NCBI RefSeq assembly: GCF_044324785.1
Contig: NZ_CP172127.1
Direction: 5' to 3' (one strand)
Length of the DNA stretch: 64,000 bases
Origin: Escherichia coli
GTDB taxonomy: Bacteria; Pseudomonadota; Gammaproteobacteria; Enterobacterales; Enterobacteriaceae
The notes beneath the pieces are model-generated. The model saw only the letters and a list, made by a program, of their open reading frames with translations. It did no database searches and was not told the origin of the DNA. Below, piece by piece: positions 1-35,506 of the stretch (positions within the stretch are counted from its first letter, which is position 1; each line of letters opens with the position of its first letter). The position numbers and the translations under genes are program-made.

Positions 1-1322
<1,322 letters not shown>

Positions 1323-1488
1323 TTAAAAGATAACATGACAATGCATGATGAATATAACAACATATGATGTTATGTAATGTGGAGGAAGATCACAAAATTT
1401 CGCACAGGATCGCGCTGTGGCTAATGGATGTAGTTATCAAATTGAATTTAAAGTGAAAATATTTTTACGGGCGGGGGCAAGAAGGACA

Positions 1489-1525
1489 TAGAAACAAATA
1501 CGCCCTCGGAAAATCCAGAGGGCGT
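1489..1525 (-). terminator. putative intrinsic terminator downstream of yhfL
   Basis: Inverted repeat acgccctc / gagggcgt (1500-1507 / 1518-1525); on the minus-strand transcript it is followed by a U-rich run. Confidence 0.4.
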
Positions 1526-1565
1526 CGGGCAATTAAACCGGTGTTAGCCGATTTCTGTCAGAGAC

Positions 1566-1733
1566 TTACTGTGCAGTAGGACCGCAACCGCCAATGATTT
1601 TAGAAATAGAAATTGCCGGGTGCAGCAGGTAGTCGTAAGAGCAGTTCTTATCACGGTTTTCAATATGACCAGTACATGCAGTTAACGTAGCCAGTACCGC
1701 ACCTACCAGTGCAACTTTAATAAATTTGTTCAT
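1566..1733 (-). CDS. yhfL: small lipoprotein, 55 aa
   Basis: Manual translation MNKFIKVALVGAVLATLTACTGH...GGCGPTAQ; signal peptide with lipobox LTAC; below the 60-aa cutoff of the ORF track. Confidence 0.7.
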   Translation of the reverse strand: MNKFIKVALVGAVLATLTACTGHIENRDKNCSYDYLLHPAISISKIIGGCGPTAQ

Positions 1734-1979
1734 TTACATTCCCTATGTATTATATATTGATTAATATTCATTGTTTATATGAATATAAGCAGACTGCTCA
1801 TTAAGAACGATACAGGAATATTTAATTGGCGTCAGTGAGTGAATGGCTTAATTTTGTAAGTCGCTGTAACGGTGAATATAACCCATTAGCAGATAATATT
1901 TATTAAGGGGTTATGTTTTATTTGCTGAATATATAAAAAGAGTCATTAAGAAGGCCAGAATTCTCTGGCCCGGGTTACA

Positions 1980-3353
1980 TTAATGGTTGGAGAACCAGTT
2001 CAGTTTATCGCGCAGGCCAACAACCCGACCAATAATAATTAGCGATGGACTGTTCATTTGCTGCGCTAGTTCGCCCAGCTGTGTGAGCGTACCGTCAATC
2101 ACGCGCTGCGTGACTGCTGTTCCGTTTTCGACAATTGCCACCGGCATTTCGCCAGGCATACCGTGTTCAATCAGCTTTTGCTGAATGGTCGCGGCCTGAT
2201 TCAGCCCCATATAGAACACCAGCGTCTGTTTTTCTGCCGCCAGGTTTTCCCAGTCCAGCTCGCCACCGGTTTTTAAGTGTCCGGTAATTAAGCGTACGCT
2301 CTGGGCATAATCGCGATGCGTGAGCGGAATACCCGAATAGGCAGAGCAACCAGAAGCTGCGGTAATACCCGGAACCACCGAGAACGGAATACCCGCGTTG
2401 CACAGTGTTTCCAGCTCTTCGCCACCACGGCCAAAAATAAACGGATCGCCACCTTTCAGCCGCACCACGCGTTTGCCTTTTTGCGCTTCCCGCAGCAGGA
2501 TCTGGTTTATCTCTTCCTGCGGTACGCAGTGGTATCCCGCGCGTTTGCCGACGAAAACGCGATCAGCATCGCGGCGTACCAGATTCATAATATCGTCAGA
2601 AACTAGACGGTCGTAGACCACCACATCTGCCTGCTGAATTTGTTGCAGACCTTTCAGTGTCAGCAGCCCGGCATCGCCCGGACCTGCGCCAACCAGCACC
2701 ACTTCACCGCGATGGTCGAGCGGTTCGTTGATTAACTGTTCGGTCGTTTCAGTAATGGCTTTCTGATCGTTGTTTGCCAGCGACTGCGCCAGACGGTCAT
2801 TAACGAACAGTTTTTCCCAGAAACGGCGACGTTCACCCATTGTTGCGAACTGTTGTTTCACTCGACCGCGTAATTGCCCGGCGTATTTCGCTACCTGGCC
2901 CAGATGCAACGGCAGCAGTGATTCAAGTTTTTCACGCAACAGGCGTGCCAGAACCGGAGAGGTGCCGCCAGAGGAGACCGCGACCATGAGCGGTGAGCGG
3001 TCAATAATCGACGGCATAATAAAGCTGGCGGCTTTCGGCGCATCGACCACGTTACAGAAGATGCGACGAGCTTCAGCGGCTTCACTGACGCGCTGGTTAA
3101 GCGCGTCATCATCCGTCGCAGCAATCGCCAGCCAGCAGGTGTCGAGAAGGCTTTCATCAAATGGCCCTTCGACGAGGGTTAACATGCCTGCATCTGCCCA
3201 TGCGGTGAACTGCGGAATAAACGCTAATGCATTCACCGTTAAGCGAGCGCCTGCGTCTAACAGTAACCTTGCTTTGCGTTCCGCGACATCACCACCGCCG
3301 ACAATCAGACAGTCGCGATCGCGTAATTGGCAAAATATAGGCAAATGATCCAC
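1980..3353 (-). CDS. cysG: siroheme synthase (uroporphyrinogen-III methyltransferase / precorrin-2 dehydrogenase / ferrochelatase)
   Basis: 457 aa ORF, N-term [31 protein letters not shown]; length and sequence match CysG. Confidence 0.95.
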
Positions 3354-32617: not shown

Positions 32618-32763
32618 TTTCTGTTTTTAAAATGCTTCATTTGTCAGGCTTTTTTCTTATTTTTAATGCCGCACTTTAATTCATATTGAAGGGTTCTCGT
32701 AAAACGTAAATAATTCCTGCGTAGGACTTTTGTTTTGCAGTTTTTACGTCACAAGGGATTATA

Positions 32764-35466
32764 ATGAAATTAAATATATTTACTAAATCTATGATTGGTA
32801 TGGGGCTGGTGTGTTCCGCTCTGCCAGCATTGGCAATGGAAGCATGGAATAACCAACAAGGTGGTAATAAATATCAGGTTATTTTCGATGGCAAAATTTA
32901 TGAAAATGCCTGGTGGGTTTCTTCTACAAATTGCCCGGGAAAAGCAAAAGCAAATGATGCAACTAACCCATGGCGTTTAAAGCGTACCGCGACAGCTGCT
33001 GAAATTAGTCAGTTTGGCAATACACTTTCCTGCGAAAAGAGCGGCAGCTCATCTTCTTCAAATTCAAATACGCCTGCATCCAATACGCCGGCTAATGGCG
33101 GTTCGGCTACACCAGCACAGGGCACTGTTCCGTCTAATTCTTCTGTAGTTGCCTGGAATAAACAGCAGGGCGGTCAGACCTGGTATGTCGTCTTTAATGG
33201 TGCGGTATATAAAAATGCCTGGTGGGTAGCCTCTTCTAACTGCCCGGGTGATGCGAAAGGCAATGATGCCAGCAACCCATGGCGTTATGTTCGTGCCGCT
33301 ACGGCAACGGAAATCTCAGAAACCAGTAATCCACAGTCCTGTACTTCAGCACCACAGCCTGCGCCGGATGTGAAACCGGCACCGGACGTTAAACCGGCTC
33401 CTGATGTTCAGCCAGCCCCAGCTGATAAGTCAAACGACAACTATGCTGTCGTAGCCTGGAAAGGTCAGGAAGGTTCTTCTACATGGTACGTTATCTACAA
33501 CGGCAGCATTTATAAGAACGCCTGGTGGGTAGGCGCGGCAAATTGCCCAGGCGATGCGAAAGAAAACGATGCCAGCAACCCATGGCGTTATGTTCGCGCG
33601 GCAACGGCAACAGAAATCAGCCTGTATGGTAATCCGGGTTCCTGTTCCGTTAAGCCGGATAATAATAGCGGTGCTGTGACTCCGGTTGATCCAACTCCGG
33701 AAACACCGGTAACTCCAGTTACTCCAACTCCGGATAATAACGAGCCATCAACACCAGCGGATAGCAGTAACGATTACTCACTGCAGGCGTGGAGTGGCCA
33801 GGAAGGTAGCGAAATTTACCATGTTATCTTCAATGGTAATGTTTATCAGAATGCCTGGTGGGTTGGTTCTGAAGATTGCCCACGTGGCACTAGTGCAGAA
33901 AACTCCAATAACCCATGGCGTCTCGTGCGTACAGCTACCGCTGCGGAAATGAGTCAGTACGGTAACCCGACTACCTGTGAAATTGATAATGGCGGCGTCA
34001 TTGTTGCGGATGGTTTCCAGGCCAGCAAAGCGTACAGCGCGAACAGCATCGTAGATTATAACGATGCACATTATAAAACCTCTGTCGATCAAGACGCATG
34101 GGGCTTTGTCCCGGGCGGCGATAACCCGTGGAAGAAATACGAACCGGCGAAAGCATGGTCCGCTTCCACCGTGTACGTGAAAGGTGATCGCGTTGTTGTT
34201 GATGGGCAGGCTTATGAAGCGCTGTTCTGGACGCAAAGCGACAACCCTGCTCTGGTTGCGAACCAAAACGCCACCGGTAGCAATAGCCGCCCGTGGAAGC
34301 CGTTAGGTAAGGCTCAGAGCTATAGCAACGAAGAGCTGAATAATGCGCCGCAGTTTAATCCAGAAACGCTTTATGCCAGCGATACGCTGATTCGCTTTAA
34401 CGGTGCGAACTACATTTCTCAGAGTAAAGTGCAGAAAGTTTCTCCTTCTGACAGCAACCCGTGGCGTGTTTTTGTTGACTGGACCGGAACCAAAGAACGT
34501 GTAGGTACGCCGAAGAAAGCGTGGCCGAAACACGTTTATGCACCGTATGTTGACTTTACGCTGAATACGATCCCGGATCTGGCTGCGCTGGCTAAGAATC
34601 ATAACGTCAACCACTTCACGCTGGCGTTTGTGGTGAGTAAAGATGCGAACACCTGTCTGCCGACATGGGGTACCGCTTACGGTATGCAGAATTACGCTCA
34701 GTACAGCAAAATCAAAGCTCTGCGTGAGGCTGGCGGCGATGTGATGCTGTCTATCGGTGGTGCTAACAACGCTCCGCTGGCTGCTTCCTGTAAGAACGTA
34801 GACGATCTGATGCAGCATTATTATGACATCGTTGATAACCTGAACCTCAGAGTCCTGGACTTCGATATCGAAGGCACCTGGGTTGCGGATCAGGCATCTA
34901 TTGAACGCCGTAACCTTGCTGTGAAGAAAGTGCAGGATAAATGGAAGTCAGAAGGCAAAGATATTGCTATCTGGTACACCTTGCCAATTCTACCGACTGG
35001 CCTGACGCCGGAAGGGATGAATGTCCTGAGCGATGCCAAAGCGAAAGGTGTTGAGCTGGCGGGTGTGAACGTGATGACAATGGACTACGGTAATGCGATT
35101 TGTCAGTCTGCAAATACCGAAGGCCAGAACATTCACGGTAAGTGTGCAACGTCTGCGATTGCCAACCTGCATTCACAATTGAAAGGCCTCCATCCCAACA
35201 AGAGCGATGCAGAAATTGACGCTATGATGGGTACCACGCCGATGGTTGGCGTGAACGACGTTCAGGGCGAGGTGTTCTATCTCTCTGATGCTCGTCTGGT
35301 CATGCAGGATGCGCAGAAGCGTAATCTCGGTATGGTTGGTATCTGGTCAATCGCGCGCGACCTGCCGGGCGGCACTAACCTGTCTCCGGAATTCCACGGC
35401 CTGACTAAAGAACAGGCACCGAAGTACGCATTTAGCGAAATCTTCGCGCCGTTTACTAAGCAATAA
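32764..35466 (+). CDS. chiA: periplasmic/secreted endochitinase (multi-domain, GH18-type catalytic domain)
   Basis: 900 aa ORF: signal peptide, four about 70-aa repeats, two CBM5/12-like motifs, C-terminal catalytic domain (DFDIEG). Confidence 0.93.
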   Translation: MKLNIFTKSMIGMGLVCSALPALAMEAWNNQQGGNKYQVIFDGKIYENAWWVSSTNCPGKAKANDATNPWRLKRTATAAEISQFGNTLSCEKSGSSSSSNSNTPASNTPANGGSATPAQGTVPSNSSVVAWNKQQGGQTWYVVFNGAVYKNAWWVASSNCPGDAKGNDASNPWRYVRAATATEISETSNPQSCTSAPQPAPDVKPAPDVKPAPDVQPAPADKSNDNYAVVAWKGQEGSSTWYVIYNGSIYKNAWWVGAANCPGDAKENDASNPWRYVRAATATEISLYGNPGSCSVKPDNNSGAVTPVDPTPETPVTPVTPTPDNNEPSTPADSSNDYSLQAWSGQEGSEIYHVIFNGNVYQNAWWVGSEDCPRGTSAENSNNPWRLVRTATAAEMSQYGNPTTCEIDNGGVIVADGFQASKAYSANSIVDYNDAHYKTSVDQDAWGFVPGGDNPWKKYEPAKAWSASTVYVKGDRVVVDGQAYEALFWTQSDNPALVANQNATGSNSRPWKPLGKAQSYSNEELNNAPQFNPETLYASDTLIRFNGANYISQSKVQKVSPSDSNPWRVFVDWTGTKERVGTPKKAWPKHVYAPYVDFTLNTIPDLAALAKNHNVNHFTLAFVVSKDANTCLPTWGTAYGMQNYAQYSKIKALREAGGDVMLSIGGANNAPLAASCKNVDDLMQHYYDIVDNLNLRVLDFDIEGTWVADQASIERRNLAVKKVQDKWKSEGKDIAIWYTLPILPTGLTPEGMNVLSDAKAKGVELAGVNVMTMDYGNAICQSANTEGQNIHGKCATSAIANLHSQLKGLHPNKSDAEIDAMMGTTPMVGVNDVQGEVFYLSDARLVMQDAQKRNLGMVGIWSIARDLPGGTNLSPEFHGLTKEQAPKYAFSEIFAPFTKQ
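32836..33996 (+). repeat. four tandem about 70-aa domain repeats within chiA separated by Ser/Pro/Thr-rich linkers
   Basis: Repeats of the form AWN.QQGG..Y.V.FNG.VY.NAWWV....CPGDAK.NDASNPWR.VR.ATA.E.S...NP..C; linker at 33358-33420 encodes PAPDVK-PAPDVK-PAPDVQ. Confidence 0.85.
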
Positions 35467-35473
35467 ATGTGTT

Positions 35474-35506
35474 GGCGATACCTTCCGGTATCGCCGCATT
35501 TTTTGT
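35474..35506 (+). terminator. chiA intrinsic terminator
   Basis: ggcgatacc-ttcc-ggtatcgcc stem-loop followed by gcattttttg. Confidence 0.8.

What the first reader, a model, noticed from the sequence alone, without database searches (positions are those of the whole stretch)
32836..33996. chiA N-terminus is built from four tandem repeats with a PAPDVK nucleotide tandem repeat in one linker
Four about 70-aa modules sharing AWN.QQGG..Y.V.FNG.VY.NAWWV....CPGDAK.NDASNPWR.VR.ATA.E.S...NP..C precede the catalytic region, joined by Ser/Pro/Thr-rich linkers. The linker at 33358-33420 is an 18-nt unit repeated three times (PAPDVK x3). Such architecture is prone to slippage and recombination; the 900 aa length here versus 897 aa in my recollection of the K-12 protein is consistent with length variation, though I cannot say where the difference lies.
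Basis: partly seen in the sequence, partly recalled or inferred. Interest (0 to 1): 0.35.

Follow-up and report, generated by a model that had tools for sequence, protein, structure and literature searches.

The report
Repeat-built, length-variable front of E. coli chitinase ChiA
The front half of the known E. coli secreted chitinase ChiA really is four copies of one small domain joined by floppy linkers, and both the linkers and the domains gain or lose units between strains, which is ordinary biology for a known gene.

Summary
Window 32764-35466 (+) is E. coli chiA (900 aa), lying between tufA and bfd-bfr-gspO. Residues 27-405 hold four gap-free 64-aa, two-cysteine modules that are 50-73% identical. 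They are joined by three Ser/Pro/Thr-rich linkers.

The 900 versus 897 aa (K-12) difference is not in the PAPDVK repeat. It is a 9-nt tandem unit (CCGGAAACN, x2 versus x1) in linker 3.

The PAPDVK 18-nt repeat also varies among 5,426 complete E. coli genomes:
- x2 in 29 genomes
- x4 in 17 genomes, from at least two independent duplications
- x3 in the rest of the ~3,100 genomes carrying the gene
- x1 and x5 in none

Other length variants:
- Linker 1 has a 15-nt unit, x3 in 25 genomes.
- One E. coli genome, and the protein named for Shigella dysenteriae/boydii, carry a module 2/3 hybrid. It was made by crossover in a 29-nt identity block and removes 303 nt.
- Laboratory B strains (BL21) lack modules 2 and 3 through a microhomology deletion.

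The modules miss Pfam CBM_5_12. They match the Yersinia entomophaga Chi2 N-terminal domain (E = 2.5e-17), and a predicted model resembles CBM5/12 folds weakly. The gene and its domains are already known, so interest is low.

The parts
32764..35466 (+). chiA coding sequence (900 aa), the periplasmic/secreted GH18 endochitinase of E. coli
   Evidence: ORF. 97.7% DNA identity to K-12 chiA with the same neighbours. Pfam GH18 and CBM_5_12 hits.
32764..32835 (+). Probable signal peptide (aa 1-24, ...ALPALA|MEAW)
   Evidence: Inference from the sequence (hydrophobic core, Ala-x-Ala). In single-module orthologues the module follows the same ...A(L/F)ALEAW junction. No signal-peptide predictor was available.
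32842..33033 (+). Module 1 (aa 27-90), 64 aa with Cys57 and Cys90
   Evidence: 80% identical to the first module of the syntenic three-module orthologue P0035.
33034..33150 (+). Linker 1 (aa 91-129, 31% Ser). Holds a 15-nt tandem unit x2 at 33064-33093 (SNTPA SNTPA), which is x3 in 25 genomes.
   Evidence: (family D8).
33151..33342 (+). Module 2 (aa 130-193)
   Evidence: It is closest to module 3 (73% aa).
33265..33293 (+). 29-nt block identical to 33568-33596 in module 3. This is the crossover site of the natural 303-nt deletion.
   Evidence: Identity shown. The ETEC1746 hybrid switches from module-2 to module-3 states inside this block.
33343..33453 (+). Linker 2 (aa 194-230, 24% Pro). Holds 18-nt units at 33358-33375, 33376-33393 and 33394-33411 (PAPDVK, PAPDVK, PAPDVQ), plus a degenerate unit at 33412-33429 (PAPADK).
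   Evidence: Copy number is x2 in 29 genomes and x4 in 17 genomes; x1 and x5 were not found.
33454..33645 (+). Module 3 (aa 231-294)
33646..33786 (+). Linker 3 (aa 295-341, Pro/Thr-rich). Holds a 9-nt tandem at 33697-33705 (CCGGAAACA) and 33706-33714 (CCGGTAACT). K-12 has one unit, which accounts for 897 versus 900 aa.
   Evidence: This linker is the second most polymorphic segment of the gene.
33787..33978 (+). Module 4 (aa 342-405). It is the copy most like the single module of other genera and the most polymorphic segment. It carries the published sites 362, 370, 378 and 388.
   Evidence: Sites are named in PMC11486038 and PMC6393329.
33979..34500 (+). Three canonical CBM5/12 chitin-binding domains (aa about 415-570)
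   Evidence: Pfam CBM_5_12 E = 8e-15 with 3 stretches. Best stretch is aa 464-497.
34597..35187 (+). Core of the GH18 catalytic domain (aa 612-808, best Pfam stretch)
   Evidence: Pfam PF00704, E = 2.4e-10.

Best explanation
This is the non-catalytic N-terminal half of the known E. coli chitinase ChiA (YheB).

Shown. One ancestral 64-aa, two-cysteine N-terminal module has been duplicated in tandem to four copies, separated by low-complexity Ser/Pro/Thr-rich linkers. Each linker holds a short, in-frame, imperfect DNA tandem repeat of 15, 18 or 9 nt.

Inferred mechanism of variation. Replication slippage or unequal exchange occasionally adds or removes one linker unit. Homologous crossover in a 29-nt identity block shared by modules 2 and 3 removes exactly one 303-nt period. 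A microhomology deletion between linkers 1 and 3 removed modules 2 and 3 in E. coli B. All these changes keep the reading frame, so strains make ChiA proteins of 686 to 903 aa.

Inferred function. The modules are distant CBM5/12-like binding domains with an added helix and probably a disulfide. In four copies they would give multivalent binding to chitin or GlcNAc-bearing host glycans. The linkers would act as flexible spacers that tolerate length change.
For: Repeat structure.

Gene identity and synteny.

Linker length variants, each verified by alignment of fetched alleles:
- 9-nt indel in linker 3
- 18-nt unit x2 in 29 genomes and x4 in 17 genomes, with two distinct duplicated registers
- 15-nt unit x3 in 25 genomes

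Module-level variants:
- Module 2/3 hybrid with the crossover inside the identity block
- The same kind of hybrid in a protein named for Shigella dysenteriae and S. boydii, carried on 142 contigs, the longest 5.0 Mb, and in other sequence backgrounds
- B-strain deletion with a CCGG[C/A]TAA junction in 34 laboratory B genomes

Ancestry:
- Orthologues in Citrobacter, Chimaeribacter and others have one module.
- A syntenic orthologue has three.
- Only 45 representative proteins in 1.84 billion match the module.

Fold and homology:
- The AlphaFold model has pLDDT 79.6.
- The top Foldseek hits are also CBM5 domains.
- The module profile matches Y. entomophaga Chi2 residues 26-89 at E = 2.5e-17.

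Published work attributes CHI3L1 and mucin binding to ChiA and its 'chitin-binding domains 1-7' (PMC11486038).
Against: - Pfam CBM_5_12 does not hit any of the four modules even at E <= 10.
- Profile-profile comparison with ChiA's own CBM5/12 domain is weak (E = 0.013, probability 3%).
- The structural matches are below the usual significance levels.
- The only solved homologue, Chi2-NTD, works as a protein-protein anchor, not as a demonstrated glycan binder (PMC12705794).
- No binding data exist here for individual modules.
- The linker repeats are imperfect (11-14 of 18 identical) and their variants are rare (about 1.5% of alleles). The 'slippage-prone' label is therefore relative.
- Slippage and unequal recombination cannot be told apart from sequence alone.
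Confidence: 0.85

Rival explanations
1. The modules are not carbohydrate-binding domains. Like the homologous N-terminal domain of Yersinia entomophaga Chi2, they are protein-protein docking units that donate a beta-strand to a partner protein. The four copies would then tether ChiA to a bacterial surface or secretion-system component, or to a host protein.
For: - The only solved homologue is Chi2-NTD (E = 2.5e-17 over all 64 positions). It anchors Chi2 to YenA1 by beta-strand donation (PMC12705794).
- Pfam CBM_5_12 does not recognise the modules.
- ChiA already has three canonical CBM5/12 domains.
Against: - No Tc-toxin partner was looked for in this work; that E. coli lacks one is background knowledge.
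- The modules keep the exposed aromatic motif (Y..NAWWV, NPWR) typical of CBM5/12.
- The model's best structural matches are all chitin-binding domains.
- The two cysteines conserved in the chitinase modules are absent from Chi2 (alignment), so Chi2-NTD may be the derived, co-opted form.
Confidence: 0.12
2. The region is a contingency (phase- or antigen-variation) locus. The tandem repeats change copy number at high frequency and reversibly within a clone, to tune adhesion or evade immunity.
For: Three independent in-frame microrepeats vary between strains. The x4 state arose at least twice. ChiA is a host-interaction factor (PMC11486038).
Against: - Units are imperfect and low in number (2-4 copies, 61-78% identity).
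- All indels are multiples of three, so there is no on/off switching.
- Variants are rare (46 of about 3,100 alleles for the 18-nt unit).
- Variants follow lineages. The 25 genomes with linker 1 x3 are all among the 29 with PAPDVK x2. All 34 two-module alleles are laboratory B derivatives.
- Seven diverse alleles share the same x3 state.
Confidence: 0.04
3. The length variants are sequencing or assembly artefacts of a repetitive gene, and all real alleles have one length.
For: Repeats can collapse in short-read assemblies. The module 2/3 hybrid was found in only one complete E. coli genome. Several hybrid proteins come from single short contigs.
Against: - Each variant class recurs in many independently sequenced complete genomes: 29, 17, 25 and 34.
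- The modules are only 61-74% identical in DNA, with at most 29 nt of perfect identity, too little to collapse an assembly.
- The variants are in frame and annotated as intact genes.
- The Shigella hybrid protein is seen on 142 contigs, the longest 5.0 Mb.
Confidence: 0.02

Closest known systems
E. coli K-12 ChiA / YheB (WP_000773156.1, 897 aa), the 'bifunctional chitinase/lysozyme'
   Same: Same gene and locus (tuf-chiA-bfd-bfr-gspO). 97.7% DNA identity. Same four modules, three linkers, three CBM5/12 domains and GH18 domain.
   Different: The window allele has one extra 9-nt unit in linker 3 (900 aa) and 54 substitutions, 39 of them in the first 1,233 nt. At the five published polymorphic sites it reads Q362/E370/A378/V388/A548. 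That lies between K-12 (KKAEV) and LF82 (QEVVE) (PMC6393329).
Yersinia entomophaga Chi2 N-terminal domain (PDB 6ogd chain C, 9c4k, 9cbc)
   Same: Clear sequence homology to the module over all 64 positions (E = 2.5e-17). It holds the same place at the mature N-terminus of a GH18 chitinase. The published description is a compact mixed alpha/beta fold, and the AlphaFold model has three strands and one helix (PMC12705794).
   Different: Chi2 has a single copy and lacks the two conserved cysteines. Its known role is docking to the toxin subunit YenA1. No such partner is known in E. coli (background knowledge, not tested here).
CBM5/12 chitin-binding domains (Pfam PF02839; e.g. Streptomyces griseus ChiC 2d49, Serratia ChiB, Pyrococcus ChBD1 2rts)
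   Different: The Pfam model does not detect them. They carry an extra C-terminal helix and a Cys pair. The profile-profile score is weak.
Pro/Thr/Ser-rich interdomain linkers of secreted glycoside hydrolases (background knowledge, e.g. cellulase PT linkers)
   Same: Low-complexity composition: 70-85% P/S/T/A/G/N/D. They sit between folded binding domains, contain internal short repeats and tolerate length change.
   Different: Here the copy-number states of three separate linker repeats were counted within one species' complete genomes.

Membership tests
E. coli chiA (yheB) orthologue | High identity to the K-12 gene over its full length | tested here: met
   97.7% identity over 100% of the 2,703 nt, with a single 9-nt gap.
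E. coli chiA (yheB) orthologue | Conserved locus: tufA upstream; bfd, bfr and gspO downstream | tested here: met
   The window ORFs around chiA match the K-12 annotation.
E. coli chiA (yheB) orthologue | GH18 catalytic domain plus CBM5/12 domains | tested here: met
   PF00704 41 bits (cut-off 29.6) and PF02839 50 bits (cut-off 26.2). Three CBM_5_12 stretches.
CBM5/12 (Pfam PF02839), for the four N-terminal modules | Match to the family HMM above the gathering score | tested here: not met
   No CBM_5_12 hit for any of the four modules scanned singly at E <= 10.
CBM5/12 (Pfam PF02839), for the four N-terminal modules | Profile-profile similarity to bona fide CBM5/12 domains | tested here: inconclusive
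   hhalign against ChiA's own central CBM5/12 gives E = 0.013, probability 3%, with 36 columns in the expected register. Both alignments are shallow.
CBM5/12 (Pfam PF02839), for the four N-terminal modules | CBM5/12 fold | tested here: inconclusive
CBM5/12 (Pfam PF02839), for the four N-terminal modules | Binding to chitin or GlcNAc glycans through surface aromatic residues | not testable with these tools
   The aromatic residues W2, Y20, W24, W25 and W44 are invariant in the module alignment. Binding needs an experiment.
Chi2-NTD-type N-terminal domain of GH18 chitinases | Sequence homology to Y. entomophaga Chi2 residues 26-89 | tested here: met
   hmmsearch E = 2.5e-17, profile positions 1-63 against chain residues 26-89.
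Chi2-NTD-type N-terminal domain of GH18 chitinases | Position directly after the signal peptide of a GH18 enzyme | tested here: met
   Most of the 45 representative proteins carry the module at residues about 27-90. Window module 1 is at aa 27-90.
Chi2-NTD-type N-terminal domain of GH18 chitinases | Docks to a Tc-toxin A subunit by beta-strand donation | not tested
   Known for Chi2 only (PMC12705794). No Tc-toxin partner was looked for in the window.
Contingency (phase-variable simple-sequence-repeat) locus | Long, near-perfect repeat tract whose changes switch expression or reading frame | tested here: not met
   2-4 imperfect units (11-14 of 18 identical). All unit lengths (9, 15, 18 nt) are multiples of three, and variant alleles stay in frame.
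Contingency (phase-variable simple-sequence-repeat) locus | High-frequency variation within clones | tested here: inconclusive
   The variants are rare and the genome lists overlap in a lineage-like way. Within-clone rates cannot be measured from assemblies.

The most novel reading that the evidence does not exclude
The four modules may be adhesin-like docking units of the Chi2-NTD type, not classical chitin-binding domains. On this reading, their number and spacing are adjusted over evolutionary time by the linker microrepeats and inter-module crossover. ChiA length alleles (686-903 aa) would then differ in how they engage host CHI3L1 or mucin. That would add an unexamined length axis to the published 'pathogenic versus non-pathogenic' substitution polymorphism.
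Probability: 0.1. Interest if true: 0.45.

Novelty: already known. Interest (0 to 1): 0.2.

Why it matters
ChiA is studied as a colonisation factor of Crohn's-disease-associated E. coli. Allele typing has so far looked only at five amino-acid substitutions in a 550-bp fragment (PMC6393329, PMC11486038).

Three points are of practical use:
- The gene also varies in length at three linker repeats and in module number.
- The standard expression host BL21 carries its own two-module chiA.
- The 'chitin-binding domains 1-4' are homologous to a domain whose solved role is protein docking.

These points help with primer design, with interpreting recombinant-protein work and with choosing constructs for binding studies. 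They do not change the understanding of the gene.

Tried and rejected
1. Intragenic gene conversion as the cause of the high diversity of module 4. At the 14 sites where the window and K-12 differ in module 4, I compared each state with the paralogous bases in modules 1-3. Six were window-like, two K-12-like and six ambiguous, with no contiguous tract. No signal, so this was dropped.

2. A sequence link from the module profile to CBM5/12 through weak hits in the 1.84-billion-protein library. The multi-stretch hit P0073 is an HYR-repeat protein, and the other hits were uninformative.

4. NCBIfam has no model for this protein.

5. The search for homologous proteins with aa 1-420 returned truncated and hybrid clusters but not the standard 897/900-aa cluster. 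It could not be used for allele frequencies, so I used junction-specific DNA queries with strict E-value limits instead.

6. Low et al. 2013 (PMC3755095) is not held in the library. Its content is cited only through PMC11486038 and PMC6393329.

7. PAPDVK x1 and x5 alleles were searched for and not found.
Full report
WHAT IS THERE

The finding lies in the ORF 32764..35466 (+), which encodes 900 aa. The gene is E. coli chiA:
- It is 97.7% identical in DNA over its full length to the K-12 BW25113 gene annotated 'chiA, bifunctional chitinase/lysozyme'.
- It has the same neighbours: tuf upstream; bfd, bfr and gspO downstream.
- Pfam finds one strong CBM_5_12 stretch and the GH18 domain in the C-terminal 500 residues.
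- NCBIfam has no model for the protein.

CHECK OF THE OBSERVATION

A self-comparison of 32700-35500 finds four copies of a 180-nt unit at 32827, 33136, 33439 and 33772. Spacings are 309, 303 and 333 nt, and identity to the reference copy is 61-74%.

In protein the conserved core is exactly 64 residues, from the AW motif to the second cysteine, at aa 27-90, 130-193, 231-294 and 342-405. There is not a single indel among the four copies. Identity is 50-73% in protein and 61-71% in DNA. The most divergent pair (modules 2 and 4) gives BLASTP E = 5e-26, so the repeat is real.

The three linkers are 39, 37 and 47 aa long and are 70-85% P/S/T/A/G/N/D.

The 'PAPDVK x3' repeat reads PAPDVK, PAPDVK, PAPDVQ, followed by a degenerate PAPADK (33358-33429). 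The DNA units share only 11-14 of 18 bases, and Tandem Repeats Finder reports 1.9 copies at 88% matches.

Three canonical CBM5/12 domains (about aa 415-570) lie between module 4 and the catalytic domain.

WHERE THE 900/897 DIFFERENCE LIES

Alignment with K-12 (897 aa) shows one 9-nt gap in linker 3, not in the PAPDVK linker. In the 900-aa alleles the sequence is a tandem pair: CCGGAAACA CCGGAAACT in strains Ecol_276 and E700025. The window carries a point change in the second copy (CCGGTAACT, Glu to Val). K-12-type alleles have a single unit.

In a sample of 58 full-length alleles taken at even steps through 3,162 matching complete genomes, 22 were 2,703 nt and 36 were 2,694 nt.

DOES THE PAPDVK REPEAT VARY?

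Seven diverse alleles all had three units. Rare variants would be missed by such a sample. I therefore built synthetic alleles with 1, 2, 4 and 5 units and searched the 5,426 complete genomes with E-value limits that only an ungapped full-length match can pass.

| Units | Genomes |
|---|---|
| 1 | 0 |
| 2 | 29 |
| 4 | 17 |
| 5 | 0 |

Fetched examples confirm the variants:
- Strain 95-3322 has a 2,685-nt gene lacking one unit.
- Strains cq9 and CV839-06 have 2,712-nt genes (903 aa) with an exact duplication of CCGGATGTGAAACCGGCA.
- Strain MB51 has a duplication of a different unit, CCGGACGTTAAACCGGCA.
The x4 state therefore arose at least twice.

A THIRD MICROREPEAT

The allele of strain GW-AmxH19 revealed a 15-nt insertion in linker 1 (SNTPA-SNAPA-SNTPA instead of SNTPA-SNTPA). 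This state occurs in 25 genomes, all of which are among the 29 with PAPDVK x2. It gives an 899-aa protein, for example in UPEC132, which also has the LF82-type substitutions. All three linkers therefore hold an in-frame tandem repeat that is polymorphic in copy number.

WHOLE-MODULE CHANGES

Crossover between modules 2 and 3.
- The two modules share a 29-nt block of perfect identity (33265-33293 and 33568-33596).
- A junction query found one complete genome, ETEC1746, whose 2,391-nt gene lacks exactly one 303-nt period.
- Its sequence switches from module-2 to module-3 states inside that block.
- The same kind of hybrid occurs in a 701-aa protein named for Shigella dysenteriae and S. boydii. 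That protein is carried on 142 contigs, the longest 5.0 Mb.
- Hybrids also occur in LF82-like and K-12-like backgrounds. One (P0013) has its crossover further upstream, which suggests several independent events.

Deletion in E. coli B.
- E. coli B derivatives (BL21, C41, C43, T7 Express and others; 34 genomes) carry a 686-aa, two-module protein.
- It lacks window 33093-33734, which is 642 nt of the window allele and 633 nt of K-12.
- The junction lies at an imperfect 8-nt microhomology, CCGG[C/A]TAA, between linkers 1 and 3.

Intact-frame allele lengths seen in complete genomes are 2,061, 2,391, 2,685, 2,694, 2,700, 2,703 and 2,712 nt.

WHAT THE MODULES ARE

Pfam's CBM_5_12 model does not hit any of the four modules even at E <= 10. 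It does hit the three downstream domains.

A profile of ten modules matches one solved protein: Yersinia entomophaga chitinase Chi2, residues 26-89, at E = 2.5e-17. That domain (Chi2-NTD) was unmodelled in 2019 (PMC6486591). It was resolved in 2025 as a compact mixed alpha/beta fold that anchors Chi2 to the toxin subunit YenA1 by beta-strand pairing (PMC12705794).

An AlphaFold model of the module (pLDDT 79.6) has three strands and a helix.
- Foldseek's best three matches are also such domains, at E = 0.2-2.
- Profile-profile comparison with ChiA's own CBM5/12 is weak but in register (E = 0.013).

I read the module as a distant CBM5/12-like domain with an added helix and a conserved Cys pair. 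Published work calls the modules chitin-binding domains 1-4 (PMC11486038). Membership of the Pfam family is not established.

ORIGIN

In 1.84 billion representative proteins only 45 match the module at E <= 0.001. It is nearly always a single copy directly after the signal peptide of a GH18 chitinase. Orthologues in Citrobacter, Chimaeribacter and others have one module.

A syntenic orthologue (fusA-tufA-chiA-bfd-bfr-gspO) in assembly GCA_032071645.1 has three modules.
- Its first module pairs with E. coli module 1 (80% identity).
- Its last pairs with module 4 (73%).
- E. coli modules 2 and 3 are each other's closest relatives (73%).

The array thus grew from one copy. Module 4 stays closest to the single-copy form, and the 2/3 duplication is the youngest. 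That matches the fact that this pair still recombines.

HOW IT MOST LIKELY WORKS

Shown: the repeat anatomy, the positions and frequencies of the indels, and the crossover site.

Inferred:
- The indels arise by replication slippage or unequal exchange; sequence cannot separate the two.
- The linkers are flexible spacers that tolerate these changes.
- Four modules plus three CBM5/12 domains give multivalent binding to chitin or GlcNAc-bearing glycans.

The last point fits published binding of ChiA to CHI3L1 and mucin (PMC11486038). It was not tested per module.

RIVAL READINGS
- A rapid phase-variation reading is unlikely. The units are few and imperfect, all changes are in frame, the variants make up about 1.5% of alleles, and the variant genome sets overlap in a lineage-like way.
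- An artefact reading is unlikely, because each class recurs in many complete genomes.
- A docking-domain reading, by analogy with Chi2-NTD, cannot be excluded.

COMPARISON WITH WHAT IS KNOWN, AND VERDICT

The gene, its domain count and its substitution polymorphism are all published. The two allele studies I could read examine only substitutions. One of them does not contain the words deletion, insertion or indel, so the length alleles may be undescribed. They are still a minor addition.

Noticed in passing
window 32764-35466; locus L003: Only 3,162 of 5,426 complete E. coli genomes have any chiA match, and 3,107 have it near full length. In strain 3PT an IS1B element follows chiA nt 61, and the rest of chiA through gspE is gone. 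chiA is thus a presence/absence gene as well as a length-variable one.
   Followed up: partly
window 33847, 33871, 33896, 33926, 34406 (codons 362, 370, 378, 388, 548): At the five published 'pathogenic polymorphism' sites the window allele reads Q, E, A, V, A. This lies between LF82 (Q, E, V, V, E) and K-12 (K, K, A, E, V). The closest complete-genome allele (chicken strain 104, 99.6% identity) reads the same.
   Followed up: yes
window 33646-33978 (linker 3 and module 4): This is the most polymorphic stretch of chiA among ten full-length alleles: pi is 0.038 and 0.050, against 0.009-0.024 elsewhere, with both synonymous and non-synonymous changes. The E700025 allele is a mosaic of window-like and K-12-like segments inside module 4. 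No intragenic gene-conversion tract was detected.
   Followed up: partly
protein P0026 (UniProt CHI11_METAN) against window aa 354-868: The UniProt entry 'Endochitinase 11' of the fungus Metarhizium anisopliae is 87% identical to E. coli ChiA residues 354-868. It has K-12-type residues and short frameshift-like garbled patches. It looks like an E. coli clone with sequencing errors, not a fungal gene.
   Followed up: partly
protein P0036 (243 aa): This protein consists of three tandem copies of the same module with short linkers. It has no GH18 domain and no Pfam hit. Its source organism is unknown.
   Followed up: no
locus L015 4001-6361 (GCA_032071645.1): This is a syntenic chiA orthologue with three modules and Pro/Val/Asp-rich linkers in another enterobacterium. 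It shows that the multi-module state predates E. coli's four-copy form.
   Followed up: partly
loci L011, L012; protein P0003: chiA is a pseudogene in several strains. GW-AmxH19 has a 91-nt deletion (window 34301-34391). MB51 has a 1-nt deletion (window 34932). The Shigella dysenteriae/boydii protein (P0003) has a garbled, shortened C-terminus that looks like a frameshift.
   Followed up: partly
window 34449-34467: A fifth copy of the 19-nt 'SNPWR' motif of the modules lies in the third canonical CBM5/12 domain (89% identical to the reference copy). This fits a distant common origin of the modules and the CBM5/12 domains.
   Followed up: no
annotation of loci L002, L009, L011: RefSeq names the shortened alleles (the BL21 two-module and ETEC1746 three-module forms, and some frameshifted genes) 'carbohydrate-binding protein' and not chiA. 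Gene-name searches would therefore miss them.
   Followed up: no
summary (places per genome, median 2): A megablast of chiA against each genome returns two places per genome. This is probably because the 29-nt identity between modules 2 and 3 seeds a second, out-of-register match. Two places were on plasmids and were not examined.
   Followed up: no
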